Positions 40,454 through 64,000 of a DNA stretch of 64,000 nt are shown here, piece by piece. The translations under genes were made by a program, and so were the position numbers. This stretch comes from an uncultured Methanosarcinaceae archaeon (GTDB taxonomy: Archaea; Halobacteriota; Methanosarcinia; Methanosarcinales; Methanosarcinaceae): NCBI GenBank assembly GCA_963847185.1, contig CAWJYV010000001.1, positions 256,001 through 320,000 of the forward strand. Direction: 5' to 3'. Under the pieces are notes generated by a model, which did no database searches, was not told the DNA's origin, and worked only from the letters and a program-made list of their open reading frames with translations. Every line of letters begins with the position of its first letter. The first letter of the stretch is position 1.

Positions 40454-40786
40454 TTGGTAAGGGAAGGACTACAGGAAGACACATTCAAAGATTATATTAA
40501 GACATCCCTAAATCCATCTACCAGAACTATAGGACACAGGAAATGCGGGCTCATTTTTAATTTTGTGGATGGAAACTGGCCAAAAAAGTACTCTACAAGA
40601 AAAGAATTGAAAATTTTGGCAGCAACATTTGCAGAATGCAATAAATTATCTTCCGAAATAGTTGCAAAATTTCTGCTAGAGGTAGATAGGCTAAAGTCTT
40701 GTGGTAAACTTTCTGATGATAGAATTCTTGTATATGCGTATCAGAGTGTTCTGGAAATTGAAAGCACCGATAAGCCAGTTTCATAG
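40454..40786 (+). CDS. Hypothetical protein immediately upstream of the CIS ATPase
   Basis: 110-aa ORF, co-oriented, ends 34 bp before the ATPase; no recognisable family. Confidence 0.5.
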   Translation: MVREGLQEDTFKDYIKTSLNPSTRTIGHRKCGLIFNFVDGNWPKKYSTRKELKILAATFAECNKLSSEIVAKFLLEVDRLKSCGKLSDDRILVYAYQSVLEIESTDKPVS

Positions 40787-40820
40787 ATTGGAAGTCTGAT
40801 TTCAAAAAAGATGGTATTGT

Positions 40821-43025
40821 TTGCTATCCAATATGAAGCCATATGCCGATAATCTCGAACATCTTCTGGACGAACTTTCCAGAATAGATTTGCTAATACA
40901 AAGTTACGTTGATAGTTTTAGAGAAGAATTTCCTGAGACTGGAGACGAATTTAGAGGTCTTTATATATCAGAAGCTGAAATCGACCAGATCCAAAAAAAT
41001 CCAGGTATTAGAAGCAAAAAGGGAAAATTGCAAGAGGTAAAAATTGAAAAGTTTACGGAAATTGATTCAGTAAGAAATAAAATTAATGCCAAAAAAGAAG
41101 AAAGCCTTAAAAAAGGTATTGAACTAAGACTTCATATTCTTTCGGAACTTTTTTGTCTTGATTCTTTCGAGATAGATATTCTTTTAATCGGGCTTGCCCC
41201 GGAACTGGACCTCAAATATGAAAAGCTTTATTCATATCTTCAAAATGACGTGATGAAAAAAAAGCCGACCATAGATCTGATTCTGACTTTTCTCTTCCCA
41301 ATAATCGAGGAAAAAATCAAAGCTAGAGCCTATTTTTCACCTTCTTCCTCCCTTCGAAAAAACCAGCTGATTCATCTATTGGATGGAGAAGCAAACTCAG
41401 GTTCCTCCCTGATATCTAACTCTATCAAAATCGATGAAAGAATAATTAATTTTTTACTCGGGTTTGATGAGCTTGATCCAGGAATTCGGGATTCTTGTTA
41501 TGTGATAAAGCCTGAAAAATCTTTTGATTACCTGATTCTGCCTGAGGATTTAAAAAGTAAGCTAGTAAAAATGGTAAGCTGGTACAGGGGAAACAGGTTT
41601 CCAATGAAGCTTTTGCTTTGCGGTACTTCAGGAAGTGGAAAAAAAACTGCCGCAGAAGCTGTCTGCAGGGAGACAGGAGCAAACCTTTTAATAGTGGATT
41701 CAAAAGTCCTGCTAGAAGGCAAGTCGATAGATACTGCAAATCTCATAATGCGAGAATCACTCCTGCAAAATTATGTGCTATATTTTCAAGCTTTTGATGT
41801 GTTTCTCGAAGACAAAGAAACAATAAATTATTCTGAAATTCTCATTCAGGCTCTAAAGGCCTTCCCTGGATGGATATTTTTAGCAGGAAAAAAACCTATG
41901 GAATTTGATAAAGATTTGATAAATAACGGTTTCGTCCCTTGTTCCTTTCCTCTGCCTTCATACTCGGTTCGTAAACAGTTATGGGAATCCTGCCTGAAAA
42001 ATTATAAATTGGCCGAAGGGGTGGGCTTGAATGCGCTTGCGAGCAAATTCAAATTTAATGGCGGTCAAATAATAGATGCTGCCCGCACAGCATGCAGTTT
42101 TGCAGGAGAAAAAAATCCTGCTAGCCCGGTATTATCAATGGAAGAGCTCTATAAAGGCTGCAAAATACAGACTCACCACAAACTCAACTCCTTTGCCCTG
42201 AGAACCAGTCCGCATTATAAATGGGAAGATATTGTCCTTCCGAAAGACACTATGGAGCATTTAAAAGAGATTTCCAGCTTTATCAAATATAAAGGAAAGG
42301 TGCATTCCGACTGGGGCTTTGAAAAAAAATTATCTCTAGGAAAAGGCTTGAATGTTCTTTTTTCAGGTCCTCCCGGAACCGGAAAAACTATGGCTGCAGA
42401 AATTCTCGCAAATGAGGTAAAGCTTGATCTTTACAAAATTGACCTTTCCAGTGTGGTCAGCAAGTACATAGGTGAGACAGAGAAAAATCTGAAGAAGATC
42501 TTTGATGAAGCTGAAACAAGCAATTCAATCCTCTTCTTTGATGAAGCCGATGCCCTCTTTGGAAAACGTTCTGAAGTTAAGGATGCTCATGATAGGTATG
42601 CCAACATAGAGATCAGTTACCTGCTTCAAAAGATGGAAGAGTATGAAGGAATTGTTATACTTGCGACAAACCTGCACGGAAATATCGATGATGCTTTTCT
42701 GAGGAGAATGCAATTTGTTATAGAGTTTCCATTCCCTGATGAAAAACTGCGATTGCAGATATGGACCAGGATTTTTCCGGAAGATGCGCCTCTTGCTAAG
42801 GATGTAAATTACAAGTTTTTCTCAGATAAATTAAAACTTGCTGGAGGAAATATTAAAAATATTGCACTTGCGGCGGCATTTCAAGCTGCAGAGGGGTCTT
42901 GCGATATCGGGATGCGTCAACTCATGCATGCTACAAAAAGAGAATATCAGAAAATCGGAAAACCTTTTTTGAAGGTAGACTTTGAGCCATATTACAAACT
43001 GATAGAATCGGAGGAGGTGCAATGA
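40821..43025 (+). CDS. eCIS AAA+ ATPase (Afp15/Pvc15-like)
   Basis: N-terminal LAPELDLKYEKLYSYLQND..KKKPT; degenerate first AAA (GTSGSGKK); second AAA GPPGTGKT, SKYIGETEKNL, FFDEADALFGKR..VKDAHDRYAN, DAFLRR. Confidence 0.95.
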   Translation: MLSNMKPYADNLEHLLDELSRIDLLIQSYVDSFREEFPETGDEFRGLYISEAEIDQIQKNPGIRSKKGKLQEVKIEKFTEIDSVRNKINAKKEESLKKGIELRLHILSELFCLDSFEIDILLIGLAPELDLKYEKLYSYLQNDVMKKKPTIDLILTFLFPIIEEKIKARAYFSPSSSLRKNQLIHLLDGEANSGSSLISNSIKIDERIINFLLGFDELDPGIRDSCYVIKPEKSFDYLILPEDLKSKLVKMVSWYRGNRFPMKLLLCGTSGSGKKTAAEAVCRETGANLLIVDSKVLLEGKSIDTANLIMRESLLQNYVLYFQAFDVFLEDKETINYSEILIQALKAFPGWIFLAGKKPMEFDKDLINNGFVPCSFPLPSYSVRKQLWESCLKNYKLAEGVGLNALASKFKFNGGQIIDAARTACSFAGEKNPASPVLSMEELYKGCKIQTHHKLNSFALRTSPHYKWEDIVLPKDTMEHLKEISSFIKYKGKVHSDWGFEKKLSLGKGLNVLFSGPPGTGKTMAAEILANEVKLDLYKIDLSSVVSKYIGETEKNLKKIFDEAETSNSILFFDEADALFGKRSEVKDAHDRYANIEISYLLQKMEEYEGIVILATNLHGNIDDAFLRRMQFVIEFPFPDEKLRLQIWTRIFPEDAPLAKDVNYKFFSDKLKLAGGNIKNIALAAAFQAAEGSCDIGMRQLMHATKREYQKIGKPFLKVDFEPYYKLIESEEVQ

Positions 43026-43597
43026 CAGTCTTAAGAGATGTAGGTATTACATTAAGGGAACTTATCCAGTCGAAGATTCCTGAACTTAAGGTCAACCAAA
43101 ATTCGGTGGTCTTTGAATCTCCTGCAGATATTGTGCCAACAGGCAGCACAATAATGTCCGTATTTCTATATCAGATTGTAGAGAACGGTTTCTTGAGAAA
43201 TATAGAACCTGAACCAATTGATATAACTCAAATGAAATACCCGCCTTTGACTCTTGATTTGTATTATATGTTCACTCCTTACGCTAAGGACAGAGAAACT
43301 GAGCTTCTGATCATGGAAGAACTTATGCAGTTCTTCCATGATACTTCTGTTTTAAAAGGAAACGTGCTTCAAGGTAACCTGGTAGCAGCGGGAAACAACG
43401 AAATAAGAATTATTCCCAATAATTTCACATTTGAGGAAATCAACAAACTATGGGAAAGATTCCCTAACAAATCATACAAGCTATCAGCGTCCTATATTCT
43501 CAGCCCTGTTAGAATTCCATCAGCAAAAGACCCAGCCAAAATTACAAGGGTTGTTAAAAAGGAAATTAACGTGTACAGGCAGGAGGTTGACATATGA
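43022..43597 (+). CDS. DUF4255 / Pvc16-like tail cap (terminator) protein
   Basis: SVFLYQIVEN..LRN...PPLTLDLYYMFT...E.LIMEELMQFFHD...INKLW; overlaps the ATPase stop (ATGA). Confidence 0.88.
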   Translation: MTVLRDVGITLRELIQSKIPELKVNQNSVVFESPADIVPTGSTIMSVFLYQIVENGFLRNIEPEPIDITQMKYPPLTLDLYYMFTPYAKDRETELLIMEELMQFFHDTSVLKGNVLQGNLVAAGNNEIRIIPNNFTFEEINKLWERFPNKSYKLSASYILSPVRIPSAKDPAKITRVVKKEINVYRQEVDI

Positions 43598-43926
43598 TCT
43601 TCCTCGAAAGGATAGAATCAAACCTTACTCTGGCAGTCTTGTTAAAGGATGATTTGTCCCCTGATAAAAAAGCCTTTGGAAATTTGTTCTTAAGTGTTCC
43701 GAGTAAAAGAAAAGATATTATCAGGAGCAATACCGGACATTTTCTTTTAATAGACCTCCCTGAGATAAATCAGACTATTACCGGCGGCGGGGAGTACTAT
43801 AATAACTGTAGCCTCGCGATTGATTACACACATGGGAAGTTGTATGCTGACAATAACGAGGTTGATCCTAAAAATCCTGTAGTCAGTATAACTTTGAGTC
43901 CAAAATCCAATTATCCTTTTCCATAA
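43594..43926 (+). CDS. Hypothetical eCIS protein (beta-rich; possibly C-terminally truncated)
   Basis: Overlapping ATGA start; N.TGHFLLIDLP...L.PKSNYPFP then stop; followed by a MITE-containing gap. Confidence 0.6.
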   Translation: MIFLERIESNLTLAVLLKDDLSPDKKAFGNLFLSVPSKRKDIIRSNTGHFLLIDLPEINQTITGGGEYYNNCSLAIDYTHGKLYADNNEVDPKNPVVSITLSPKSNYPFP

Positions 43927-44056: not shown

Positions 44057-44173
44057 TAGGACTTACGCAGTTGAGGTTCAAAATCAAGGCAACAGACATC
44101 ATTGCCAAATCTATGATTTAGACAGTTGAAGGTTCAACGCCTTTGATTATTCAGTTCAACTGCGTAAATCCTA
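44057..44173. mobile_element. MITE family B (117 bp, 5-bp TSD AAATA)
   Basis: TIR TAGGACTTACGCAGTTGA ... TCAACTGCGTAAATCCTA; AAATA on both flanks; reverse-complement match to the 52176 copy. Confidence 0.9.
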
Positions 44174-44457
44174 AAATATTGGTAGCATTATATCAAGATT
44201 TTAAGAAAAATATCGATTTTAGCAGATGGGCAGTATTATATAGAATACTACACCCGTTACAAGAGTACACTCTTACGTTTGATATATAATATGACACTTT
44301 AACGAATTTACCTTAATTTTCTATTTTTAAACTTTCTACTTTTTGGTTAAATATTGAGTTTACAGAGAGAATTCTATATTCAATACAATTCATTCCCATG
44401 ACTGTACAGGAAATTTAAAGGAATTAAACATCTTTAATTTGATAAAGGAGGTATAAT

Positions 44458-46308
44458 ATGACTGAATATCTTTCACCAGGAGTATATGTCGAGGAAAAGT
44501 CCTCCGGGGTAAAGCCTATTGAAGGCGTCGGCACTTCGACCGGGGCTTTTGTTGGAATTGCAGAAAAAGGACCGGTAGGAGAAGCAAACCTGATTGCAAA
44601 TTGGACTCAGTTTGTTAATAAGTACGGAGCCTTTACTGACAAAGCATATCTGGCATATGCAGTTTATCAGTTCTTTGCAGAAGGAGGAACTCGATGCTAT
44701 GTAGTAAGGACATGCCATTATACGGATATAACGAACAAATCTTCAAAGACAACTAAGGCTGCAACAGCGACCCTGAACGATAGCGCTGCTTCTCCTGCAG
44801 CATCTTTAAAATTCACGGCATTGGAAGAAGGTACATGGGGCGAAAAAATTACCATCGAAGCAAAAGATGCCACTGATACTACCCTAACAAGTGGATTCAA
44901 GCTGGTTGTAAAATATGATGAAGATGAGCAAGAGTCCTTCGATAATCTTACGATGGGAAATGTCCTGGACGAAGTAAAGAGCTCAGCGTATATCAAAGTT
45001 GAAAAGGTAGGAACTACTGCTCCCAAGAAAGGTACATCTGTGACCCTTAAAGGCGGAAGTAACGGTGCCGCCGCCCGTTCAACAGGAAACTTGAACGATA
45101 GCGCTACTCCTGCTGTAGGATCGCTGAAATTCACAGCGTTGAATGATGGTGCTTGGGGTGATAAAATTTCCATCGAAGCAAAAAGCGCCACTGATACTGC
45201 ACTAGCAAATGGATTCAAGCTGGTTGTAAAATTTGAAGGTATTGAGCAGGAGTCCTTTGATAACCTTACAATGGAAAATGTATTGGAAAAAGTAAAAAGT
45301 TCGGCATATATCAAAGTTGAAAAGATAGGATCTACTCCCAATGCTCCCAAAAAAGATACATCTGTGACTCTTAAAGACGCAAATGCCTCCTCTCTTATTG
45401 TAGCGGATTTTGAAGGCGATGCAAAGGCAGGAAACGGTCTCCATGCGTTCGATGTGGTAGATGATATCAATATCGTTGCCATGCCGGATAGTGCAAATAT
45501 TCTCACTACTGCTGCGAATAAATTTGGACCTAGAAACGCTATTATAAAGGGTTATAGTTACTGCCAGAACAGGGGGGATTGCTTCTTTATTGCGGATTCA
45601 CCAAAGGAACTTAGTCCTACTCAAGTTAAGGATTTTAAAGAGGCAAAGGGAGATTATAACGGACAAAACTCGTTTAACTCTTCATTTGCAGCTCTCTACT
45701 ACCCATGGGTCTATATAAGTGATCCACTAGGTGGAACGAAATTAGTTCCCCCATCAGGTGCAGTTGCTGGAACATATGCCCATACAGATTCAGTGAGGGG
45801 AGTACATAAAGCACCCGCAGGAACTTCGGAAGGTTATCTTGATTCTGTAAGCGGTATAGAAAGGATTATTACAAAAAGTGAACATGATACTTTGAACCAA
45901 CCAGGGATAAATGTCATTCGTTCGTTCCCGACAGCAGGGATATGCATATGGGGGGCACGGACACTATCCTCCGACTCTGAATGGAAGTATATAAACATTA
46001 GAAGATTATTTCTTTTCCTGGAAGAATCCCTTGACGAGGCTACCCAGTGGGTAGTATTTGAGCCTAATTCCCCAGCTCTGTGGGGCTCGATAATAAGAAA
46101 TATAACCGCTTTTTTGCTAAGGGTTTGGAGAGACGGAGCTCTGTACGGGGCTACACCTGAAGAAGCTTTTTTTGTCAAAGTTGATGAAGAGAACAATCCG
46201 GAAGAAGTAAGGAATGTCGGGCAGCTGGTCATTGAAGTCGGAGTAGCACCTGTAAGACCTGCGGAATTCGTAATAATCAGAATCAAGCAGAAGACTCAGT
46301 CAAAATAA
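44458..46308 (+). CDS. Contractile tail sheath protein
   Basis: YLSPGVYVEE...GVGTSTGAFVG, AALYYPWV, PPSGAVAG, GVHKAPA, WGARTLS, WKYINIRR, WVVFEPN, GVAPVRPAEFVIIRI. Confidence 0.97.
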   Translation: MTEYLSPGVYVEEKSSGVKPIEGVGTSTGAFVGIAEKGPVGEANLIANWTQFVNKYGAFTDKAYLAYAVYQFFAEGGTRCYVVRTCHYTDITNKSSKTTKAATATLNDSAASPAASLKFTALEEGTWGEKITIEAKDATDTTLTSGFKLVVKYDEDEQESFDNLTMGNVLDEVKSSAYIKVEKVGTTAPKKGTSVTLKGGSNGAAARSTGNLNDSATPAVGSLKFTALNDGAWGDKISIEAKSATDTALANGFKLVVKFEGIEQESFDNLTMENVLEKVKSSAYIKVEKIGSTPNAPKKDTSVTLKDANASSLIVADFEGDAKAGNGLHAFDVVDDINIVAMPDSANILTTAANKFGPRNAIIKGYSYCQNRGDCFFIADSPKELSPTQVKDFKEAKGDYNGQNSFNSSFAALYYPWVYISDPLGGTKLVPPSGAVAGTYAHTDSVRGVHKAPAGTSEGYLDSVSGIERIITKSEHDTLNQPGINVIRSFPTAGICIWGARTLSSDSEWKYINIRRLFLFLEESLDEATQWVVFEPNSPALWGSIIRNITAFLLRVWRDGALYGATPEEAFFVKVDEENNPEEVRNVGQLVIEVGVAPVRPAEFVIIRIKQKTQSK

Positions 46309-46332
46309 CTGTAAATTAAGGAGGAATACATT

Positions 46333-46776
46333 ATGGCAACAGCCTCAAGAAGTGATCCGTATAGAAACTTTAGATTCAAAGTCGAAATCGATGGGATAAA
46401 AACCGCAAGCTTTGCAGAAGCTACTATCCCGGATACAACAACAGACTCTGTTGACTACAGAGAAGGTACGGATTTACCGTACCAGAGAAAGCTTTCGGGT
46501 CTCACCAAGTACGGGAACATAACATTAAAGAAAGGATTAACGGATTCGATGGAACTGTATACATGGAGAAAACTTGTGGAAGATTCCGGTGCAAGCAAAG
46601 CAAGAAAGAGCATCTCAATCGTATTGATTGATGAGGAAGGTAATGATAAATCCAGATGGGATATCATAGAAGCATGGCCAACTAAGTATTCTTCAGCCGG
46701 TTTTGATGCAAAAGGAAATGCTGTGGTAATAGAATCCTTAGAGTTAGTGCATGAAGGGATAAAGAGAACGAAGTAA
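46333..46776 (+). CDS. Tail tube protein (T4 gp19-like, Afp1-type)
   Basis: DPYRNFRFKVEIDG...YREG...GLTKYGNITLKKG...AWPTKY...IESLELVHEG. Confidence 0.95.
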   Translation: MATASRSDPYRNFRFKVEIDGIKTASFAEATIPDTTTDSVDYREGTDLPYQRKLSGLTKYGNITLKKGLTDSMELYTWRKLVEDSGASKARKSISIVLIDEEGNDKSRWDIIEAWPTKYSSAGFDAKGNAVVIESLELVHEGIKRTK

Positions 46777-46798: not shown

Positions 46799-47167
46799 AT
46801 GGGAGTTTTACAGACCGAATATGATTTTTCCCTGCCTCTGGGATATGCGGACGAATCTGGTACTCTTCACAAAACGGGTAAAATGAGACTTGCCACTGCA
46901 GCTGATGAGATACTGCCTATGAAGGACCCGAGGGTACAGAGTAATCCTGCGTATCTGACTATCATTTTACTTTCCAGAGTTGTTACTCGCCTTGGAGACT
47001 TGAAGATGGTAACTCCGCTTGTTATTGAAGGTCTTTTTGCAGCGGACTTCGCATATCTTCAGGAAATGTATACAAGAATTAATCAGAATGGTTCAAATGT
47101 AATCAAAACAGTATGCCCGAAATGTGAACACAGGTTCGATGTAGAGGTACAGTCTCCGGGGGAATAA
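46799..47167 (+). CDS. Putative tail assembly chaperone with C-terminal CPxC
   Basis: TEYDFSLPLGYADESGTLHKTGKMRLATAADEI...LLSRVV..LG...LFAADFAYLQ.MY.RIN...CPKC; directly after the tube gene. Confidence 0.8.
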   Translation: MGVLQTEYDFSLPLGYADESGTLHKTGKMRLATAADEILPMKDPRVQSNPAYLTIILLSRVVTRLGDLKMVTPLVIEGLFAADFAYLQEMYTRINQNGSNVIKTVCPKCEHRFDVEVQSPGE

Positions 47168-47354: not shown

Positions 47355-47780
47355 ATGACAGTTGGAGCCCGGAAGGATCCCTATAGTGGTTATAATTTTG
47401 TCGTGGAAATAGAGGGCATCCTGGCAGCTGGATTTACCGAGGTTTCAGGCTTGAGTATGCAAACAGAAGTTGATACCATAAAAGAAGGAGGAGTGAATAA
47501 TTATGAGCATAAGCTTCCCAGAGGGATAAAATATTCGGATATTACATTAAAACGCGGGCTTATGGATCGGGAACTCTGGGCATGGTATCGAAGGACTGTA
47601 CATGGAAATATTGAAAGAAAAAGCGGTACTATAAGTCTTCGTGACCATTCCGGAAAAACCGTACTGAGCTGGTTTTTCTTTGATGCATTTCCCATTAAGT
47701 GGGAAGGACCCGCACTAAATGCAGCTTCAAATACAGTTGCCAGTGAGACACTTGTCCTGGCGCATCAGGGTCTCATATAA
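47355..47780 (+). CDS. Second tail tube protein (Afp5-like)
   Basis: DPYSGYNFVVEIEG..AGFTEVSGL...EGGVN...KLP...ITLKRG...AFPIKWEGP.LNA...ETLVLAH. Confidence 0.93.
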   Translation: MTVGARKDPYSGYNFVVEIEGILAAGFTEVSGLSMQTEVDTIKEGGVNNYEHKLPRGIKYSDITLKRGLMDRELWAWYRRTVHGNIERKSGTISLRDHSGKTVLSWFFFDAFPIKWEGPALNAASNTVASETLVLAHQGLI

Positions 47781-51874: not shown

Positions 51875-52002
51875 GCTGATCCCAAAACTCAAAAACTATT
51901 TCTTTGAATCTCAACTTAAAAACATTTAATTGAGCTACTGATCAGGAAAGTAATTATGAAATTCCTATGGATATGGAAAAAAATAGGTTTTGGGATAGGC
52001 TC
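51873..52002. mobile_element. MITE family A (130 bp) abutting the spike stop codon
   Basis: GAGCTGATCCCAAAAC ... GTTTTGGGATAGGCTC; similar to 4852-4982. Confidence 0.75.
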
Positions 52003-57839: not shown

Positions 57840-58934
57840 ATGTCATTGCCAATACCAAACCTTGATGATAGAAGTTTTGATGATCTGATAAAAGAGGCAA
57901 AGGCACTTATTCCGACATATAACAAAGAATGGACAAATTTTAATCCTTCAGACCCCGGCATAACTCTTCTGGAACTTTTTTCTTGGCTTAGTGAGATGGT
58001 AATTTATCGGATTAACCAGGTTCCTGAAGAGAATTATAGGAAATTCCTAAAATTATTAGGTATCGAATCTACCATGACCGGTTCAGGAACAATTTCAAGC
58101 ACAGGAAAAATTGTAACCGGAGATGGGACGATTTTTAACAGTGAATTGGAAACCGGTGATTCGATTACAATCAATGATCAAACAAGGACAATCATGACAA
58201 TTAATTCAGATACATCCCTTACTGTTGACTCGATATTTAATCCGGAACTGCCCGCAGGAACAAAGTTTCGCTACTCTTACAAGAGCATTGATTCAGGCAT
58301 TCGTAAGGGATTAAACTCACTTTCCAAGCGCTATAGGGCGATTACAGTAGAGGATTATGAGTATCTGGCAAAGGAATGTATGGAGATTTTACAGAAAGGA
58401 CTTGCAGGTAGAGCAATTTGTGTGAATAATCGGGATCTGGAATACAAAAAGGAAGAGGAAGATCTCCAGCCAGGATATGTCTCGGTAATCATTATCCCCA
58501 GATGTGAAGAAAATCTTGGCTACTGTAACAATGGCTTGCCAACTGATGATCTACGAAAAAAAGTCAAAGATTACCTGGATGCCAGAAAATTAGTTACTAC
58601 AAGGCTCCGTGTGGTAGGACCTGATTATCAGGATGTAGCTGTGAAAGTGTGGATGTCACTGAAAGAAAATACATTGAAAGAAAACGTGAAAAAAGAAACA
58701 ATAGACTATATCAAAAAATATTTGGACTCTATTGAAGGAGGGAAAGAAGGTAAAGGATGGATGCTGGGAAGGCCAATTTACCGCTCGGAAATATTCCAGC
58801 TTCTCGAAGGGATTAAAGGTGTTGATCATGTGGCGAAGGTGGAAATTAATGGGTCAAATAAGAATCTCATGATAAAAAGCTATCAGCTTATTCGATTAAA
58901 GGAGGACGAAGGCATAGAAGTAGCAATTCAATAA
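57840..58934 (+). CDS. Short baseplate J/gp47-like protein
   Basis: PNLDDRSFDDL...WTNFNPSDPGITLLELF...YRINQVP; RAITVEDYE; GW.LGR; GVDHV. Confidence 0.92.
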   Translation: MSLPIPNLDDRSFDDLIKEAKALIPTYNKEWTNFNPSDPGITLLELFSWLSEMVIYRINQVPEENYRKFLKLLGIESTMTGSGTISSTGKIVTGDGTIFNSELETGDSITINDQTRTIMTINSDTSLTVDSIFNPELPAGTKFRYSYKSIDSGIRKGLNSLSKRYRAITVEDYEYLAKECMEILQKGLAGRAICVNNRDLEYKKEEEDLQPGYVSVIIIPRCEENLGYCNNGLPTDDLRKKVKDYLDARKLVTTRLRVVGPDYQDVAVKVWMSLKENTLKENVKKETIDYIKKYLDSIEGGKEGKGWMLGRPIYRSEIFQLLEGIKGVDHVAKVEINGSNKNLMIKSYQLIRLKEDEGIEVAIQ

Positions 58935-58950
58935 CAATAGAGGGTAAAAA

Positions 58951-59667
58951 ATGAGTATCAATGAAGAAGAAAGCAAATATCTTCAGTATCTGCCATCCAT
59001 ATATCAGGCAAAAGAGAATACCCCAACTTTTCTAGGACAATTTTTGAAAGCCTTTGAGAAAATATTATCAGGAATAGATGACGGGGTGAAGGTGGAGGCG
59101 CTTATAGACGGTCGGCCAGTGGAAGTAAAGGGAATCGAGAAAACACTGGATAATATACATGATATATTTGATCCTTATACTTATAAAAATATATTTGGCT
59201 CTGGCACAGACAATGCTGATTTTCTCCAATGGCTGGCAGGATGGGTGGCACTTTCCCTTAAAGAGGAAAGCTGGAGTGAACTAAAGAAACAGGAGCTTAT
59301 AGCTAAGATTGTACCCCTGTACCAGAAAAGAGGTACTAAGGAAGGACTTGAGGAATATTTGAGGATATACGTAGGTGCAGGGGTAAGAATTATTGAAGAG
59401 ATTGGTCCATTTCAGATAGGGGTCAGTTCCAAGGTTGGTGTGGATACTGTAGTTGACGGATTACACCTGTATTTCTTTATTGTTGATGTTCCCTTTTCAA
59501 CACATAATCCCCAGAAGAGAGGGGAGATCGAGAATTCTATCAGACAGATAATTGATATTGAGAAACCTGCACACACATATTATCAGATAAATTTCAACTT
59601 ATCAACAATGCAAGTCGGTTACGCACAAGTTGAAGAAAGCACTCTGTTATGGGATAGGCAGAATTGA
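58951..59667 (+). CDS. Phage P2 gpI-like tail/baseplate protein
   Basis: YLQYLPSIYQ...FL.AFE...FLQWLAGWV...LYQKRGT.EGL...EKPAHT. Confidence 0.9.
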   Translation: MSINEEESKYLQYLPSIYQAKENTPTFLGQFLKAFEKILSGIDDGVKVEALIDGRPVEVKGIEKTLDNIHDIFDPYTYKNIFGSGTDNADFLQWLAGWVALSLKEESWSELKKQELIAKIVPLYQKRGTKEGLEEYLRIYVGAGVRIIEEIGPFQIGVSSKVGVDTVVDGLHLYFFIVDVPFSTHNPQKRGEIENSIRQIIDIEKPAHTYYQINFNLSTMQVGYAQVEESTLLWDRQN

Positions 59668-59681
59668 AAGGAGGAAGAAAT

Positions 59682-61181
59682 GTGGGTATAAAAAGGATAA
59701 ATTATTTTAAAGGTGAGTTTTTAACAGCAGAAGATTTTATAGACGAGCAGCAATACCATATTGAGATGCTCAGAGAGCATAATAAAAACCTGCACGCATG
59801 GGGAATTGCTGAAGGCCTCGATGTGCCCAATAATACCGGTGGAAAAACCGTAAAAATCGAAAGCGGTATGGCAATTGATTCGCAGGGATGCCAAATTATA
59901 CTTATAGATAGTGTTGATAAACCAATACCTGATACGACCGCAAAAGAACTTTATTTAACTATATCTTATTATGACAAAGAATTAACCGACCCAAGAGATG
60001 ATAACACTGGAGCAGGTTTCCAAAATACCAGAATTGAAGAGAAACCTTTAATAGAATTTTTCGAAAATAGTAATTTCGATACATCTTTGAAACTCATCCT
60101 TGCCAAATTGACTTTAGATGATCAAAAAAAAATATCCAAGGTAGATAAAAGCGGAAGGCAGCGTGCCGGAGTAAAGGGCGATCTGGCAGCTGGCAGTATA
60201 GCCTTATCAGTAGACAATGTAGCTTCCGACCAATGGCCGAGATTAAAAGGAATCGATGCGAATAAACTTGAGATAGGTGCCAAAAGTGGGCTTCAGATCA
60301 ATTCGGAAAAGACCAGTTTGAACGGATTGCTTATAGTGAATGACAAAGTAGGCATAGGCACCACTACAACATTATCAGAAAAGCTGGAAGTGAATGGAAA
60401 AGTAAAAGCTACCGCATTTATGGGTGATGGCTCCTTAATTACTGCTCTTAATGGTACACAGATTACTAACGGAATTGTTGCTGATGCTCGGATTCCGGCC
60501 ACGATTATAAGGGAAAACCGTTTTGATCCTGCTTCGGGACATAAACATACAGGCGTTGCAGGCGATGGGCCCATAATCCAGCACAGCAGCCTTGGCAATA
60601 TTCTTGCAGTCAACCCAACCTCAACTGATGCCGCTTTAACAAAGCATGTCAGCGATGCACTAGCTAAAAGCTGGCAAGACCATATTAGAACATCGGGAAA
60701 TCCACATGGGACGACTACAGCGCAGTTAGGCGACTATTTTGCTAAAAGAGGCACGGCTTATCTTACTTTTTCTAATTCTGATGCCAATGGGGCAACAAAA
60801 ACAGCAAACTTAGGGTTTATACCCAAGCTGATACTGATTGGAGGAGGATTATATACAAATCTTGGAGGGACAGTACTCGGAAGTTCGTTTTCAGGCTTCT
60901 GGTGTTCCAATGCAGCCGTCAGTTCAGCTCCATACATCATTAAAAGCTCCTCCACATATATACAAAATTATAGCGCTTATTCATCTAGTCCATTTTATAT
61001 TTATATTTATTACAATGATACTAGTACTGGAATGACAAAACCAAAAGCTGAGACTGTTTATGGTGCTATTAGTTTTTCGGCAGAGGGGATTATGACAGTG
61101 ACATTAAATAGAACTATAAACAACAACTGTGATCCTCTGGACTCTTTTACTATTTATCTGGCGTTACTTGGTATTAGTTAA
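59682..61181 (+). CDS. eCIS tail fibre 1 (Afp13-like) with N-terminal baseplate anchor
   Basis: KRINYFKGEFLTAEDFIDEQQYH...GIAEGL.V...GMAIDSQG; VGIGT...LEVNG repeat; GHKH and NPH His motifs; GTG start with AGGAGG SD. Confidence 0.88.
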   Translation: MGIKRINYFKGEFLTAEDFIDEQQYHIEMLREHNKNLHAWGIAEGLDVPNNTGGKTVKIESGMAIDSQGCQIILIDSVDKPIPDTTAKELYLTISYYDKELTDPRDDNTGAGFQNTRIEEKPLIEFFENSNFDTSLKLILAKLTLDDQKKISKVDKSGRQRAGVKGDLAAGSIALSVDNVASDQWPRLKGIDANKLEIGAKSGLQINSEKTSLNGLLIVNDKVGIGTTTTLSEKLEVNGKVKATAFMGDGSLITALNGTQITNGIVADARIPATIIRENRFDPASGHKHTGVAGDGPIIQHSSLGNILAVNPTSTDAALTKHVSDALAKSWQDHIRTSGNPHGTTTAQLGDYFAKRGTAYLTFSNSDANGATKTANLGFIPKLILIGGGLYTNLGGTVLGSSFSGFWCSNAAVSSAPYIIKSSSTYIQNYSAYSSSPFYIYIYYNDTSTGMTKPKAETVYGAISFSAEGIMTVTLNRTINNNCDPLDSFTIYLALLGIS

Positions 61182-61238
61182 TTAACTTACAAAGTTATAA
61201 AATAAAGATAATAATATTTGAATATATTTGGAGGAAAC

Positions 61239-61844
61239 ATGTGGATAGTTTACCAAAAAAATGATCAGAAGATAGTAGGCATGAGCGCATTCAGTAGCGG
61301 ACCGGATCTTGAAAAGAATTTTGCTCTTGAAGAGGTAGTTAATGGTCTCATAGATCATGATTCACCTGATGAATATGATGCAATTCAAGTCACAGACCCT
61401 GAGCAGGCGTTCAAATTCATGATCTCCCCACCTGACAGACTAATCGTTGAGGAAAAAAATGAAGGCAGGCTAGATCTTACCATTCAAGAGCCGAAGGTAT
61501 CTTTTCTGATGCTTCAAAGTGATGCGCCTGATGTGCATGCGGTTGACGGCATTTCTGAGATTACTGCTGACGGGGAGTCATTTACCACGATCACCATGCA
61601 AAAAGTCGATGAGCTTGGGGTGCCTAAACAGGAAAAGAATGACAATGATCTGCTTTACCTTCGTACGGATTATGGAACGTTAAAAAGTGTTGATGGAAAA
61701 GAAGATATAAGTTCAATAAATCTAAATCAAGGAAAAGCTGCTTTTCGACTGGTCTCGGAAAAGGCAAAACGTGTTGCAACTGTAAAGATTTTCAATGCCG
61801 ATGCAGACTTCATAGATACCAGCATACAAATCGAATTTATCTGA
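61239..61844 (+). CDS. Hypothetical eCIS fibre-associated protein (Ig-like C-terminus suspected)
   Basis: ATG with GGAGG SD; C-terminal ITADGESFTTIT...GKAAFRL...ATVK resembles Big_1-type Ig strands. Confidence 0.65.
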   Translation: MWIVYQKNDQKIVGMSAFSSGPDLEKNFALEEVVNGLIDHDSPDEYDAIQVTDPEQAFKFMISPPDRLIVEEKNEGRLDLTIQEPKVSFLMLQSDAPDVHAVDGISEITADGESFTTITMQKVDELGVPKQEKNDNDLLYLRTDYGTLKSVDGKEDISSINLNQGKAAFRLVSEKAKRVATVKIFNADADFIDTSIQIEFI

Positions 61845-62278
61845 GTTATTTAAAAAGCTTATATAGATTCTTTGTAACTATTCAGTCCGATAAAAACAAC
61901 ATCAGTGGTATTTTGGTTAAGTTAATTGGACAAGTTTTTTGAGTTCATTTTCTTTAATTGTTGGCTATATATTGTGTTTCTCCATTTTTAAACGGGTTGG
62001 CAATTATATACGTTCGAGATTCTATCATTAAACCTGAAATTGAAAAACGAAATAAGATTCTATAAAACAGATAGTTTTAATTTTTTTCAAAAATCAAGAT
62101 TTAGTCCTCTTTTATTGATATCAGAGACAAATCTTACTAATTTTTTTAAATTTTTGATTTTAAGAGCTATTTTTGAAGATTAAGCTTTAATTGTGTGATA
62201 ATAATTGAAAATAAGTTATCTTAAATCTTAATTTGTAAATTGATTCTGGACGATTCTAACAGCAAATGGAGGTATTGA

Positions 62279-64000
62279 ATGACAGAAGAAACAGTTAAAG
62301 AAAAAATAAATTTTGGTCCTTCATCATCAATTGATGAATCCGCCGAAAAAGTACGAATCCAGGAATCCAGTAATATTGAAGATAATTTTCAGGTGACACT
62401 CTCTGGAACAGATGGGAACGTTGAGACCGGTCCTACTGATAATTTTGAGAACATATATGTAGCAGGCACAGTCGGCATAGGAGTAGCTTCCCCATCTGAA
62501 AAACTGGAAGTAAGCGGGACAATCAAAGCGATAGCGTTTATGGGCGACGGCTCTGAAATTACCGCCCTTGATGGCAAGAAAATCACTACCGGTATTATTG
62601 AAGATTCCAGGATTCCTTCTACAATCTCCAGGGAAAACCGTTTTGATCCCACCACGGGTCATAAGCACACGGGTGCTGCAGGTGACGGGCCTATAATTTC
62701 TCATAGCAAGCTTGACGAGGTCCTATCGGCCAATCCGGACTCAAGTGATACCGTCACAAATAAACATATCAGCGATGCACTGGCTAAAGGATGGCAAGAT
62801 CATATAACGATTAAGTCTGGAAATCCACATAGGACAACTGCAATAGATATTGGTGCACTGCCGATTAGCGGAGGGGCTATAAATGGGACTCTTCAAGTTG
62901 AGACTCTTCAAGTTAACGGCAAAATCGAAACAGCTGGCACCGTAGATGGTGTGGAGATATCCAACTGTTTCGATCCTTCGAGAGGACATAAGCATACAGG
63001 TGCTGCAGGTGACGGACCCAAAATATCTCACAGCAATCTTGGGGATATCATTCCAGCCAACACGGAGTCAACTGATACAACTTCAACCAAGCATGTCAGC
63101 GATGCATTAGCCAAGGGATGGCAAGACCACATAACGATTATGTCTGGAAATCCACATGGGGCGACTGCAATAGATGTAGGGGCACTGTCGATTAGCGGAG
63201 GGACTATAAATGGGACTCTTCAAGTTAACGGCAATATTGGCATTGGGACGGATACACCAAGTGGGAAACTGGATGTTAGAGGAGATATTCGTGCTGGGAA
63301 TTCTGATCTTTACTTTACAAAGGTAGACCATAATCATACAGGAATTGGAAATACCGATGGTCTTGCTGCTATTGAGAATGCAGCTGATTATGGAGCACTG
63401 ATGATTTTAGGGCGACAAGTGGTCAATAAAAGAATTGTCCGTTTATGGGATTACCTGCAAATTAATGGAAGTATGGATATTACTGGGAACGTCGGCATAG
63501 GGACTACGAATCCAAAAGATAAGCTTGATGTGTACGGAACTATCAGACTTTCCGGAAAAAATGCATTTGAAGATGCAAAAGACGGTTATCTACGGATTAA
63601 TAACCTAAATGAGTTTCCGAAAGGAACTACTTTTCCTCATCGTGTAAGTTTTTTCGGTGGGATTACAACAGGTGACTGGTATGAGGTAGATCCTGGACAC
63701 GGGAACCTACTTGTAAATGGCAAAGTTGGTATCGGGACTACAAATCCATCAGCTAGGTTAGAAGTGAACGGGAATATCAAAGCTAATAGCAGTGAGCTGG
63801 AAAGCCTATCTGTGAAAGGCAACGTCGGCATTGGAACATCTTTCCCATCTGAAAAACTGGAAGTTAACGGAGATATAAAAGTAAGTGGACAAATTGTTCA
63901 AGAAGATTGGAATGCGCCACAATTAAGTGAAGATTGGACAACTATGTCACCTCCTCATAACCCCCCAGGTTATTTCCTCGATAAGAGCGGAGTTGTACAT
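62279..64000 (+). CDS. Tail fibre 2 (partial, runs off the window; absent from ORF track)
   Basis: ATG 62279 with GGAGG SD, open for 574 codons. Five (V/I)GIG-x3-P-x2-(K/R)L(E/D)V-x-G repeats, two GHKHTGAAGDGP...KH.SDALAKGWQDHI...GNPH modules, and a terminal W..P.L...W......PGYF.D.SGVVH tip-like motif. Confidence 0.88.
   Translation, partial: MTEETVKEKINFGPSSSIDESAEKVRIQESSNIEDNFQVTLSGTDGNVETGPTDNFENIYVAGTVGIGVASPSEKLEVSGTIKAIAFMGDGSEITALDGKKITTGIIEDSRIPSTISRENRFDPTTGHKHTGAAGDGPIISHSKLDEVLSANPDSSDTVTNKHISDALAKGWQDHITIKSGNPHRTTAIDIGALPISGGAINGTLQVETLQVNGKIETAGTVDGVEISNCFDPSRGHKHTGAAGDGPKISHSNLGDIIPANTESTDTTSTKHVSDALAKGWQDHITIMSGNPHGATAIDVGALSISGGTINGTLQVNGNIGIGTDTPSGKLDVRGDIRAGNSDLYFTKVDHNHTGIGNTDGLAAIENAADYGALMILGRQVVNKRIVRLWDYLQINGSMDITGNVGIGTTNPKDKLDVYGTIRLSGKNAFEDAKDGYLRINNLNEFPKGTTFPHRVSFFGGITTGDWYEVDPGHGNLLVNGKVGIGTTNPSARLEVNGNIKANSSELESLSVKGNVGIGTSFPSEKLEVNGDIKVSGQIVQEDWNAPQLSEDWTTMSPPHNPPGYFLDKSGVVH

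What the first reader, a model, noticed from the sequence alone, without database searches (positions are those of the whole stretch)
40454..64000. Apparently complete contractile injection system (eCIS) in a methanogen
Seen: about 23 kb of co-oriented genes with the full PVC/Afp-type structural set (Afp15-like ATPase, DUF4255 cap, sheath, two tubes, LysM initiator, split hub and spike, PAAR, gp25, two baseplate-J proteins, gpI, fibres). No capsid, portal, terminase, integrase, or T6SS membrane-complex gene lies in the window. Established: the ATPase plus DUF4255 pair marks eCIS rather than prophage, and such loci have been predicted bioinformatically in archaea. Inference: I know of no functional characterisation in Methanosarcina. 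Target, cargo and release route (no lysis gene visible) are open, and the particle may be cytoplasmic or membrane-anchored rather than released.
Basis: partly seen in the sequence, partly recalled or inferred. Interest (0 to 1): 0.88.

Follow-up and report, generated by a model that had tools for sequence, protein, structure and literature searches.

The report
Contractile injection system in a methanogen
A Methanosarcina-like methanogen carries a complete phage-tail-like injection machine with target-binding fibres and toxin cargo; such gene clusters were already predicted in related archaea, but none has been tested in a methanogen.

Summary
Window 40454-64000 encodes a co-oriented Afp/PVC-type contractile injection system (CIS): AAA+ ATPase, Pvc16_N cap, sheath, two gp19 tubes, CIS_tube initiator, split hub and spike, PAAR, gp25, two Baseplate_J proteins, gpI-like protein and fibres. 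LysM is below Pfam's cut-off.

The cluster continues about 8 kb past the window.

No capsid, terminase or portal family was found in the 99.8%-complete genome.

The sheath sits with Methanoperedens and uncultured-archaeon sheaths inside a bacterial group. It is separate from four other same-genus sheaths, which group with the characterised haloarchaeal T6SS-like CIS.

Fibres and a tape-measure candidate favour a fibre-targeted particle. No membrane anchor was found. The mode of action remains untested.

Such clusters have been described in Methanosarcinales since 2014, so this is a new member of a known kind. Interest is moderate.

The parts
40454..40786 (+). 110-aa ORF of unknown function at the head of the cluster
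   Evidence: No Pfam, PHROG or NCBIfam match. Conserved at 91% in the same position in the G054 relative.
40821..43025 (+). Afp15/Cis15-like AAA+ ATPase with N-terminal winged-helix domain
   Evidence: PF22977 1.2e-57, PF00004 1.9e-39. BLASTP to the H. borinquense CIS ATPase 3.8e-122.
43022..43597 (+). Tube/sheath terminator cap (Pvc16_N, formerly DUF4255; Afp16/Cis16)
   Evidence: PF14065 6.9e-40. 4-bp overlap with the ATPase gene.
43594..43926 (+). 110-aa conserved ORF of unknown function
   Evidence: No family match. 94% in G054 and 45% in a marine bacterial locus at the same position.
44057..44202 (.). MITE-like repeat insertion in the cap-sheath intergenic gap
   Evidence: 19 of 27 genome hits are at least 80% of full length. 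Skipped exactly, with 20 other letters in its place, in relatives' contigs (tables 5 and 5c).
44458..46308 (+). Contractile sheath (Cis2), 616 aa, with an extra surface domain of about 110 aa
   Evidence: PF17482, PF04984, PF17481. PDB 8bky 4e-111, 9ezm 2.6e-98, Pvc2 5.2e-48. The closest relatives are about 500 aa and cover 66% of the query.
46333..46776 (+). Inner tube protein 1
   Evidence: PF06841 6.4e-45.
46799..47167 (+). 122-aa assembly-chaperone-like protein
   Evidence: phrog_508 tail assembly chaperone 1.6e-08. 57% identical to H. borinquense RS17705. 50-96% in all 8 loci compared.
47355..47780 (+). Inner tube protein 2
   Evidence: PF06841 1.1e-40.
47784..49523 (+). 579-aa low-complexity protein, tape-measure (Afp14/Cis14) candidate
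   Evidence: No family match. The same position in relatives holds ORFs of 432-517 aa that match only at the C-terminus. By eye, its C-terminal motif resembles that of the ORF ending just before H. borinquense cis7. This assignment is an inference.
49523..50131 (+). Tube initiator (Afp7/Cis7) with a LysM-like C-terminus
   Evidence: PF19266 1.2e-24. LysM only E 0.095. BLASTP to H. borinquense LysM protein 5.6e-33.
50145..51194 (+). Baseplate hub (gp27/gpD-like; Cis8a)
   Evidence: PF05954 2.6e-07, PF24032 1.1e-09. H. borinquense Cis8a 1.3e-31.
51191..51874 (+). Spike (gp5/gpV OB fold plus beta-helix; Cis8b)
   Evidence: PF04717 4.6e-27. H. borinquense Cis8b 6.4e-62.
51869..52505 (.). Three MITE-like repeat insertions (51869-52003, 52173-52297, 52339-52505) inside the 896-bp spike-PAAR gap
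   Evidence: 24, 27 and 7 near-full-length genome copies. Depth is 20-90 times the flank in DNA run X2, and relatives' contigs skip each element. In 3 of 3 bacterial loci that reach this point, spike and PAAR are 16-30 bp apart.
52771..53187 (+). PAAR spike tip (Cis10)
   Evidence: PF05488 2e-10.
53189..53587 (+). gp25-like sheath initiator / baseplate wedge (Cis9)
   Evidence: PF04965 1.7e-26.
53587..57561 (+). Large baseplate protein (gp6/Baseplate_J; Cis11a), 1324 aa
   Evidence: PF04865 2.1e-17. PDB 9gtp_1K 1.6e-62, AlgoCIS 7aeb_G 2.2e-15, tCIS 7b5h_AH 2e-13. N- and C-terminal parts both align to H. borinquense Cis11a.
57840..58934 (+). Second Baseplate_J protein (Cis11b)
   Evidence: PF04865 3.7e-07. 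H. borinquense Cis11b 1.9e-23.
58951..59667 (+). P2 gpI-like baseplate wedge (Cis12)
   Evidence: PF09684 8.2e-09. H. borinquense RS17645 1.1e-17.
59664..61181 (+). Fibre 1 (Cis13-like): N-terminal baseplate adaptor plus shaft repeats
   Evidence: NCBIfam CIS13_fam 2.8e-17 on residues 11-107, below the family cut-off. H. borinquense RS17690 1.6e-09. Shaft repeats are 63-65% identical to the two downstream fibres.
61218..61844 (+). 208-aa ORF of unknown function between the fibre genes
   Evidence: No family match.
62279..64000 (+). Fibre 2 (749 aa; runs on to window-equivalent 64528)
   Evidence: Matches 14 PHROG families, five annotated tail or tail-fibre protein. 61% identical over about 570 aligned positions to fibre 3, with a different C-terminal tip.

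Best explanation
This is a complete chromosomal Afp/PVC-type contractile injection system of a Methanosarcina-like methanogen. It comprises 24 co-oriented ORFs from window 40454 to about window-equivalent 72183.

Shown by homology:
- All structural modules are present: ATPase, cap, sheath, two tubes, chaperone, tube initiator, hub, spike, PAAR, gp25 and three baseplate wedge proteins.
- There are three paralogous fibres with different tips.
- There are two DUF4157 ('PVC-metallopeptidase') effectors.

Inferred mechanism:
1. The particle assembles in the cytoplasm on the baseplate. The tube is measured by the 579-aa protein and closed by the cap. The AAA+ ATPase assists assembly or loading.
2. 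The fibres bind a surface, the baseplate triggers, and sheath contraction drives the tube, spike and PAAR with DUF4157-tagged toxins into another cell.
3. Toxin 1 (562 aa) carries a conserved domain with an invariant Cys-His-Asp set. The adjacent 160-aa protein blocks it in the producer by covering the active site.
4. Toxin 2 (586 aa) carries a peptidoglycan-binding-like module and a Cys-rich domain. It has no immunity gene, which fits a bacterial cell-wall target that the archaeon lacks.

I think a fibre-targeted, released particle is the most likely mode, at roughly 55%. Release and target are not shown.
For: - Structural set.
- Gene-by-gene correspondence: 17 of 34 H. borinquense proteins queried matched the cluster at E <= 1e-3, among them 14 proteins of its CIS gene cluster.
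- Conserved order: the order ATPase to Cis11b recurs in Paenibacillus, Ruminiclostridium, Syntrophorhabdus and Brocadiaceae loci at 28-81% identity per gene (8 of 39 loci examined).
- Operon structure: seven start-stop overlaps of 1-4 bp.
- Not a prophage.
- Fibres: the CIS13-like adaptor, the PHROG fibre repeats, the Peptidase_S74 chaperone (8.6e-10) and the paralogy with divergent tips. The literature uses a fibre and a tape measure as eCIS features that cytoplasmic CIS-Sc lacks (passages).
- Cargo: eCIS_core 7.8e-10 and 2.1e-28. DUF4157 proteins were secreted in a CIS-dependent way, and some were toxic with downstream immunity, in H. borinquense.
- Toxin 1 domain: Cys, His and an Asp (C120, H150, D173) are among the 26 columns invariant in all 42 aligned sequences. 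The model has pLDDT 92.9.
- Toxin 1 partner: an orf160 homologue was found in 42 of 57 metagenome loci with at least 550 nt downstream. 38 lie directly downstream, 4 upstream, and 15 loci have none.
- Complex prediction: score 0.91 against a best control of 0.00. This mark was reached by 58 of 80 solved complexes and 2 of 110 mismatched pairs. The runs agree in at least 57% of contacts, and partner pLDDT is at least 68. The interface includes residues 119-122 and 149-151, that is the Cys and His.
- Toxin 2: PG_binding_1 E 0.0013. Foldseek hit to the SleB N-domain has probability 0.98 and TMt 0.79, but E 0.42. Its C-domain has 855 relatives. In 51 sampled members it co-occurs with eCIS_core in 25, OmpA in 5 and PG_binding_1 in 3.
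- Transcription, weak hint only: contigs from an RNA library of a sludge sample, 90-99% alike, cover all 30 bins of 40001-60000.
Against: - No experiment exists. Transcription in this organism is not shown. The RNA library may hold DNA, and I laid no silent control stretch.
- The closest solved sheaths belong to systems that are not released: Streptomyces CIS-Sc at 375.6 bits and H. borinquense at 333.3 bits, against Pvc2 at 167.2 and Afp3 at 149.9.
- No lysis or release gene was recognised.
- Four repeat insertions sit between operon genes. Three of them widen the spike-PAAR gap from about 475 to 896 bp, which could be polar.
- The fold of toxin 1 has no PDB match at E <= 0.001. Only weak transglutaminase, papain and N-acetyltransferase-like rows appear, and a profile search of PDB sequences found nothing.
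- The peptidoglycan-binding call is below both Pfam's cut-off (19.3 bits against 23) and Foldseek significance. The catalytic domain of toxin 2 has no known fold.
- The tape-measure assignment rests on position and a short C-terminal motif only.
- The CIS13_fam match is far below its cut-off.
Confidence: 0.6

Rival explanations
1. A T6SS-like archaeal CIS. The particle stays in the producer, docked baseplate-first to the cytoplasmic membrane. It fires through the S-layer into a touching neighbour, as in Halogeometricum borinquense.
For: - The only archaeal CIS studied works this way (sections read).
- The gene set is shared: split Cis8a/8b, two Cis11, Cis12, Cis13, and DUF4157 toxins with a downstream immunity gene.
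- The sheath matches 9ezm at 2.6e-98.
- An immunity gene fits kin-range, contact-dependent conflict.
- Methanosarcina grows in aggregates (recalled).
Against: - The sheath is not in the haloarchaeal clade. It falls in the sister group with Bacillota, Planctomycetota and Methanoperedens, whereas four other same-genus sheaths do join the haloarchaea (SH-aLRT 99).
- No relative of the candidate 6-TM anchor (RS17580) was found in this genome (tblastn).
- 0 of 27 cluster-region proteins has a TM-like segment.
- H. borinquense has no recognised tape measure. This cluster has a candidate, plus two extra long fibres.
Confidence: 0.25
2. A cytoplasmic CIS that fires inside the producer and mediates stress-induced cell death or development, as in Streptomyces coelicolor.
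For: - The best solved sheath and baseplate matches are Streptomyces entries: 8bky at 4e-111 and 9gtp_1K at 1.6e-62.
- No release gene was recognised.
- Caspase and CHAT protease genes follow the cluster.
Against: - CIS-Sc clusters lack a tail fibre and a typical tape measure. This cluster has three fibres and a tape-measure candidate.
- No membrane adaptor with a TM segment lies in the cluster.
- The caspase-CHAT block is a separate duplicated module. Of the 9 other genus genomes that carry the caspase, 4 (G011, G032, G040, G052) have no sheath match.
- A dedicated immunity protein argues for toxins aimed at other cells.
Confidence: 0.08
3. A decaying or silent cluster. It was acquired horizontally and is now interrupted by repeat insertions, so no functional particle is made.
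For: - Four MITE-like insertions lie within the operon that close relatives lack.
- Distribution is patchy. Only 1 of the 26 other genus genomes with a sheath match has a match above 60% identity.
- The G054 copy of the tape-measure candidate is split into two ORFs.
Against: - All 24 ORFs are intact, with no stop in any frame.
- The insertions are all intergenic.
- GC content (0.389) equals that of the flank (0.391) and the genome (0.399), so the acquisition is not recent.
- Proteins are 84-100% identical to the G054 copy across 13 ORFs, counting its two tape-measure fragments separately.
Confidence: 0.07
4. The tail module of a myovirus prophage or a tailocin.
For: All structural genes are phage-tail homologues.
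Against: - The ATPase plus Pvc16_N pair and the DUF4157 effectors mark CIS.
- PF05065, PF03237 and PF04860 are absent from the genome.
- The nearest integrase-family match is about 117 kb away.
- Upstream neighbours are housekeeping genes such as the Trm5/TYW2 methyltransferase.
Confidence: 0.02

Closest known systems
PLTS/eCIS gene clusters predicted in Methanosarcinales and ANME archaea (Methanomethylovorans hollandica Metho_1612-1628; ANME-1/2/3, Methanoperedens)
   Same: - The host order is the same, and the kind of cluster is the same: sheath, AAA+ ATPase, LysM protein, VgrG, PAAR and baseplate.
- Sarris 2014 notes two Baseplate_J genes in Archaea and discusses the GPD and base-V domains of vgrG. 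It also places Archaea next to Firmicutes (passages).
- Chadwick 2022 found clusters in all ANME groups, well transcribed in ANME-2c (passages).
- My tree puts this sheath with Methanoperedens and uncultured-archaeon sheaths.
   Different: - None of those clusters has been characterised.
- I did not compare this cluster gene by gene with the M. hollandica cluster, whose sequence was not fetched.
- Specific to this cluster: three fibre paralogues, the particular effector domains, and the repeat insertions.
Halogeometricum borinquense archaeal T6SS-like CIS (Zachs et al. 2024, PMC11566945; sheath PDB 9ezm)
   Same: - 14 proteins of its CIS gene cluster have BLASTP matches here.
- Both have a split hub and spike, two Cis11 proteins, and DUF4157 toxins with a downstream immunity gene.
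   Different: - The sheath clade differs.
- No homologue of the 6-TM anchor candidate was found.
- This cluster is one uninterrupted co-oriented operon on the chromosome. The H. borinquense one is two sub-clusters on a plasmid, with the ATPase and cap inverted.
- This cluster has a tape-measure candidate and extra fibres.
Streptomyces coelicolor CIS-Sc (Casu et al. 2023; PDB 8bky, 8bl4, 9gtp)
   Same: It gives the highest-scoring solved sheath and Cis11 relatives. The ATPase/cap/sheath/tube/baseplate set is the same.
   Different: - CIS-Sc lacks a fibre and a typical tape measure, and is cytoplasmic with the membrane protein CisA.
- In my tree, actinobacterial sheaths group with the haloarchaeal branch, not with this one.
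Afp (Serratia entomophila) and PVC (Photorhabdus), the founding eCIS
   Same: The component list Afp1-16 is the same, including the ATPase, cap, fibre and tape-measure logic. The effectors lie at the 3' end.
   Different: - Much more distant: Pvc2 scores 167 bits and Afp3 150 bits, against 376 for Streptomyces.
- Afp and PVC have three sheath paralogues (Afp2-4 and Pvc2-4 are separate chains) and a single VgrG gene (the latter recalled). This cluster has one sheath gene and a split hub and spike.
AlgoCIS (Algoriphagus) and tCIS (Anabaena) class II systems
   Same: Both have a large Cis11 with a long N-terminal part. 7aeb_G and 7b5h_AH match residues 915-1131 and 922-1131.
   Different: The sheath relation is distant, at about 149 bits. 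tCIS is thylakoid-anchored, and AlgoCIS is released on lysis (recalled).

Membership tests
Afp/PVC-type CIS (eCIS/PLTS superfamily) | Contractile sheath plus gp19-like inner tube | tested here: met
   PF17482, PF04984 and PF06841 x2. PDB CIS sheaths.
Afp/PVC-type CIS (eCIS/PLTS superfamily) | Afp15-like AAA+ ATPase together with a DUF4255/Pvc16_N cap | tested here: met
   PF22977 + PF00004 and PF14065, in adjacent overlapping genes.
Afp/PVC-type CIS (eCIS/PLTS superfamily) | Baseplate set: Afp7 (tube initiator with LysM), Afp8 (VgrG), Afp9 (gp25), Afp10 (PAAR), Afp11 (gp6/J), Afp12 | tested here: met
   LysM itself is only E 0.095. Afp8 is split in two genes.
Afp/PVC-type CIS (eCIS/PLTS superfamily) | Tape measure (Afp14) | tested here: inconclusive
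   The 579-aa ORF is at the expected place with no family match. Only a short C-terminal stretch (26-113 aligned residues) is conserved in relatives.
Afp/PVC-type CIS (eCIS/PLTS superfamily) | Tail fibre (Afp13) downstream of the baseplate | tested here: met
   CIS13_fam partial match, PHROG tail-fibre families, Peptidase_S74. Three paralogues.
Afp/PVC-type CIS (eCIS/PLTS superfamily) | No head, portal or terminase genes (not a prophage) | tested here: met
   0 genome matches to PF05065, PF03237 and PF04860. No such gene among the ORFs scanned in the flanks. The contig ends 6.7 kb after the last effector.
Afp/PVC-type CIS (eCIS/PLTS superfamily) | DUF4157/eCIS_core effector genes nearby | tested here: met
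   Two within the cluster and a third elsewhere on the contig.
eCIS in the strict sense (released, cell-free particle) | Particles are released and act extracellularly | not testable with these tools
   Only indirect evidence: fibres and a tape-measure candidate are present, no TM anchor, and no lysis gene was recognised.
Archaeal T6SS-like CIS (H. borinquense type) | Conserved multi-pass membrane anchor (Hbor_38620 homologue) next to the cluster | tested here: not met
   RS17580 (6 TM-like segments; my identification of Hbor_38620 rests on its TM count and position) gave no tblastn hit in G000. It also hit 0 of 59 genus genomes (no positive control). 0 of 27 cluster-region proteins has a TM-like segment.
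Archaeal T6SS-like CIS (H. borinquense type) | Sheath in the haloarchaeal clade | tested here: not met
   Quick ML tree of 36 rows. This sheath lies in the other main group, whereas 4 same-genus sheaths do cluster with the haloarchaea.
Archaeal T6SS-like CIS (H. borinquense type) | DUF4157 toxin with a downstream immunity gene | tested here: met
   for the 562-aa/160-aa pair. No partner was seen for the 586-aa protein.
Streptomyces-type cytoplasmic CIS | No tail fibre, no typical tape measure; a membrane adaptor (CisA) with a TM segment in the cluster | tested here: not met
   Fibres are present. No TM-bearing protein. The CisA sequence itself was not compared.
Canonical bacterial T6SS | TssB/TssC (VipA/B) sheath, TssJLM membrane complex, ClpV | tested here: not met
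   PF05943 VipB gave 0 matches in the genome. TssJLM and ClpV were not searched.

The most novel reading that the evidence does not exclude
A methanogen uses a released, fibre-targeted injection particle for cross-domain warfare. It kills neighbouring bacteria with a peptidoglycan-directed DUF4157 effector, for which it needs no immunity because it has no murein. A second, immunity-guarded Cys-His-Asp toxin handles archaeal kin or serves as a general cytoplasmic poison.

This would be the first member of an experimentally unstudied CIS lineage shared by Methanosarcinales, Methanoperedens, Bacillota and Planctomycetota. It would also be the first archaeal CIS shown to act on bacteria.
Probability: 0.2. 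Interest if true: 0.8.

Novelty: new member of a known kind. Interest (0 to 1): 0.45.

Why it matters
What contractile injection systems do in methanogens and methanotrophic archaea is an acknowledged open question. Zachs 2024 says so in its Discussion, and a 2025 paper notes that archaeal CIS killing of bacteria 'remains to be tested'.

These organisms live in dense syntrophic consortia that control methane fluxes. A weapon or signalling device aimed at partners or competitors would therefore matter ecologically.

This cluster is intact, lies in a 99.8%-complete 10-contig genome, and comes with a defined cargo: a toxin with a predicted cognate immunity protein, and a second toxin with a cell-wall-binding-like module. 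That gives concrete, ordinary experiments.

The presence of the cluster is not in itself surprising. 26 of 58 other genomes of the genus have a sheath homologue.

Tried and rejected
**Searches that found nothing or stayed weak**
- Fold search of both effector models against PDB gave no match at E <= 0.001.
- Profile searches of PDB sequences gave nothing significant.
- ESM Atlas gave only leads below 0.9. These included Ntox44 with PG_binding_1 for the 586-aa C-terminus at 0.79 and 0.75. I did not rely on them.
- Rfam found 0 families in 38000-64000. There are no tRNA genes in 30000-64000.
- The H. borinquense anchor candidate had no match in 59 genus genomes, but that search had no positive control.

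**Caspase and CHAT as release or death module: rejected as part of the cluster**
- The block is duplicated on contig C6.
- The caspase occurs in genus genomes that have no sheath match.

**Compositional island: rejected**
- GC is 0.389 in the cluster, 0.391 in the flank and 0.399 in the genome.

**Small hydrophobic ORFs**
- Those in the cluster are nearly all antisense or embedded in genes. I did not take them as anchors.

**Sequencing runs**
- No run held half or more of the sampled words. The best share was 0.28.
- Shares that I did not lay are not used as evidence.

**Sources I could not see**
- Makarova 2019 (mBio) is not held. It appears only in a reference list.
- The eCIStem and dbeCIS subtype labels sit in supplements that I could not see. 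I therefore give no Ia-IId label.

Full report
**1. Observation**

ORF listing shows a run of co-oriented plus-strand ORFs from 40454 to the window end. Seven junctions overlap by 1-4 bp, for example 43022/43025, 43594/43597, 49523, 51191/51194, 53587 and 59664/59667.

- WHD + AAA ATPase
- Pvc16_N cap
- sheath
- two gp19 tubes
- a CIS_tube protein
- GPD hub
- Phage_base_V spike
- PAAR
- gp25
- two Baseplate_J proteins
- a P2 gpI-like protein
- fibre-like proteins

LysM is only a sub-threshold match (E 0.095).

The 122-aa ORF between the tubes matches a tail assembly chaperone PHROG. The 579-aa ORF before the tube initiator has no family match.

None of 27 proteins in the region has a TM-like segment at Kyte-Doolittle > 1.6 over 19 residues. 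At 1.4, only one segment appears, inside the ATPase.

**2. Extent and surroundings**

The window is C1:256001-320000 of a 4.04-Mb genome in 10 contigs, 99.83% complete. I fetched the 16.8 kb to the contig end as L001, where an L001 coordinate plus 62000 gives the window-equivalent coordinate.

The fibre ORF that is open at 64000 is 749 aa. After it come:
- a 715-aa fibre with a Peptidase_S74 chaperone
- a 562-aa eCIS_core (DUF4157) protein
- a 160-aa ORF
- a 586-aa eCIS_core protein
- a caspase (C14) protein, a CHAT protein and a weakly SNase-like ORF

The last three form a block duplicated in inverted orientation at the end of contig C6, at 91-97% identity. Of the 9 other genus genomes with a caspase match, 4 have no sheath match. 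I therefore end the CIS cluster after the 586-aa gene, at about window-equivalent 72183.

Upstream neighbours are a Trm5/TYW2-type tRNA methyltransferase and a secreted-type M6 peptidase. Capsid, terminase and portal families give no match in the genome. The nearest integrase-family match is about 117 kb upstream. GC content does not differ from the genome.

**3. Organism**

McrA from contig C8 is nearest to named Methanosarcina sequences at 88-90% identity. Other genera reach at most 82%. Its best solved relatives score about 1250 bits. The 97%-identical relative's record is titled an uncultured Methanosarcinales archaeon. 'Methanosarcina-like methanogen' is therefore justified.

**4. Relatives**

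The sheath has 3119 relatives at E <= 1e-10 among 8000 scored candidates. In the genus, 26 of 58 other species genomes have a sheath match. Only one (G054, 97%) has a match above 60% identity; the rest are at 36-55%.

Solved structures rank as follows:

| Entry | System | Bits |
|---|---|---|
| 8bky | Streptomyces CIS-Sc | 375.6 |
| 8bl4 | Streptomyces CIS-Sc | 365.4 |
| 9ezm | H. borinquense sheath | 333.3 |
| 6j0b (Pvc2) | PVC | 167.2 |
| 6rao (Afp3) | Afp | 149.9 |
| 7b5h | tCIS | 149.1 |
| 7adz | AlgoCIS | 149.0 |
| 9mkb | T4 gp18 | 55.7 |
| 3j9q | R-pyocin | 29.3 |

The entries were tied to papers by a text search and by a passage in Zachs 2024. The 9ezm chain is 574 residues, which is also the H. 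borinquense sheath ORF length.

I built a quick ML tree of 36 sheaths, with SH-aLRT support only and rooted on a long Paracoccus branch, so the root is unsafe. The rows were 14 of the 39 loci, 5 same-genus loci, 5 plasmid records and 11 database proteins.
- This sheath groups with G054, uncultured-archaeon and Methanoperedens sheaths. That group is nested among Nitrospinota, Brocadiaceae, Paenibacillus/Ruminiclostridium and Syntrophorhabdus.
- Four other same-genus sheaths cluster with the two haloarchaeal ones (support 99), next to Deinococcus and Actinomycetota.

Gene order is conserved in the bacterial loci examined, including the split hub and spike. Spike and PAAR are 16-30 bp apart in the 3 loci that reach that point (8 of 39 loci examined).

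**5. Comparison with the one characterised archaeal system**

I read sections 6, 9, 10, 12 and 13 of Zachs et al. 2024. The H. borinquense CIS:
- is membrane-bound and contact-dependent
- has split cis8a/b and two cis11 genes
- has DUF4157 proteins that are secreted CIS-dependently, some toxic with a downstream immunity gene
- correlates with a 6-TM protein upstream

I fetched pHBOR03. 17 of 34 of its proteins matched this cluster at E <= 1e-3, among them 14 proteins of its CIS gene cluster. PAAR, the immunity partners and three membrane proteins did not match.

The 6-TM candidate (RS17580) has no relative in this genome or in 59 genus genomes (no positive control).

Casu et al. 2023 (passages) state that cytoplasmic CIS-Sc lacks a conventional fibre and a typical tape measure.

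**6. Fibres**

The 505-aa protein has a CIS13-like N-terminal adaptor. Its shaft repeats are 63-65% identical to those of the 749- and 715-aa proteins. Those two are 61% identical over about 570 aligned positions and then diverge. One ends in a beta-rich domain (judged by eye from the sequence), the other in the S74 chaperone. Paralogous fibres with different tips suggest recognition of external surfaces. This is an inference.

**7. Cargo: 562-aa protein**

Residues 290-562 form an unnamed domain found in 136 database proteins at E <= 0.001. It is mostly fused to eCIS_core, and the closest named protein (74% identity) comes from a Methylobacter MAG.

In a 42-row alignment, Cys120, His150 and Asp173 (fragment numbering) are among the 26 invariant columns. 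The AF2 model has pLDDT 92.9. Foldseek gives no significant PDB match. The weak rows are transglutaminase-, papain- and N-acetyltransferase-like enzymes.

A homologue of the adjacent 160-aa ORF occurs in 42 of 57 metagenome loci that have at least 550 nt downstream. 38 lie directly downstream, 4 upstream, and 15 loci have none.

The complex predictor supports binding:
- score 0.91 against a best control of 0.00
- this mark was reached by 58 of 80 solved complexes and 2 of 110 mismatched pairs
- the runs agree in at least 57% of contacts, and partner pLDDT is at least 68

The interface lies over residues 119-122 and 149-151. No similar solved complex was found, so a pass from memory is unlikely. 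I read this as a toxin-immunity pair.

**8. Cargo: 586-aa protein**

After the DUF4157 domain comes a PG_binding_1-like module. Pfam gives E 0.0013, below its cut-off. The Foldseek hit to the SleB N-domain has probability 0.98 but E 0.42.

A Cys-rich C-terminal domain of about 200 aa follows. It has 855 relatives and no Pfam or PDB match. No immunity-like small gene follows it.

This fits a cell-wall-directed effector harmless to a murein-free producer. That reading is an inference from weak matches.

**9. Repeat insertions**

The 896-bp spike-PAAR gap and the cap-sheath gap contain four small elements: 44057-44202, 51869-52003, 52173-52297 and 52339-52505. Each has 7-27 near-full-length copies in the genome. 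Two belong to one family with terminal inverted repeats.

Contigs of relatives about 93-96% identical in sludge metagenomes skip exactly these intervals. Depth there rises 20-90-fold in DNA run X2.

**10. Expression hint**

Contigs assembled from an RNA library of one sludge sample lie on all 30 bins of 40001-60000 at 90-99% likeness. These are contigs of a relative, the library may contain DNA, and I laid no silent control. This is a weak hint only.

**11. Literature**

| Source | What I saw | Point |
|---|---|---|
| Sarris 2014 | passages, | Lists Methanomethylovorans hollandica and H. borinquense clusters. Notes two Baseplate_J genes in Archaea and discusses the GPD and base-V domains of vgrG. 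Places Archaea next to Firmicutes. |
| Chadwick 2022 | passages, | Clusters found in all ANME groups. |
| ANME-3 paper, 2025 | passages, | 9 of 21 Methanovorans genomes appear to have a complete system. |
| Geller 2021, Danov 2024 | passages, | DUF4157 is an effector marker. M. hollandica has five predicted toxins. |
| Zhang 2012 | passages, | Defines the PVC-metallopeptidase with variable C-terminal toxins. |

Four searches found no functional study in a methanogen.

**12. Verdict**

This is a real, intact CIS cluster with cargo, and a new member of a known kind. I put the fibre-targeted toxin-delivery reading as a whole at 0.6 confidence. Within it, a released particle is the likeliest mode at about 55%, with a T6SS-like mode at 0.25. 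Interest is 0.45.

Noticed in passing
window 44057-44202, 51869-52003, 52173-52297, 52339-52505: Four MITE-like elements of 125-167 bp are inserted in intergenic gaps of the operon. Two (44057-44202 and 52173-52297) are one family at 82% identity in inverted orientation, with terminal inverted repeats. Each has 7-27 near-full-length copies in the genome, and all are absent from close relatives' contigs.
   Followed up: yes
L001 10560-16842 (window-equivalent about 72560-78842) and G000:C6 about 75300-81717: The caspase, CHAT and SNase-like block at the end of contig C1 is duplicated, inverted, at the end of contig C6 at 91-97% identity. This probably caused the contig break. The caspase also occurs in genus genomes without a sheath match.
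   Followed up: partly
G000:C1:9595-9792 (outside the window): A third eCIS_core (DUF4157) open frame of 622 aa lies about 287 kb upstream of the cluster, near integrase-family fragments at C1:6702-7249. It may be an orphan effector.
   Followed up: no
L048 24-4283 (H. borinquense pHBOR03, NC_014736.1): A long low-complexity open frame ends just before cis7. Its C-terminal motif resembles the end of the 579-aa protein here, although the 2024 paper lists no tape measure. The frame could be spurious in a GC-rich genome.
   Followed up: partly
L008 13332-15226 (G054 relative): The homologue of the 579-aa tape-measure candidate is split into two ORFs of 211 and 367 aa in the 97%-related MAG.
   Followed up: no
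genus genomes G008, G034, G035, G039 (L004-L007): The genus holds at least two CIS lineages. The four other sheaths sampled cluster with the haloarchaeal T6SS-like sheaths, and some are 807-831 aa open frames. Their loci were not examined.
   Followed up: partly
L001 6164-7852, residues 290-562: The toxin domain is 74% identical to a DUF4157 protein of a Methylobacter MAG, and its immunity partner is 59-61% identical in two metagenome loci. This points to effector cassettes shared between bacteria and archaea.
   Followed up: partly
window 35945-38230 (-): A 761-aa protein with an M6-like metallopeptidase domain and two proprotein-convertase P-domains lies two genes upstream of the cluster on the opposite strand.
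   Followed up: no
window 57689-57865 (+): A 58-aa ORF with one hydrophobic segment lies in the gap between the two Baseplate_J genes and overlaps the start of the second. Conservation was not checked.
   Followed up: no
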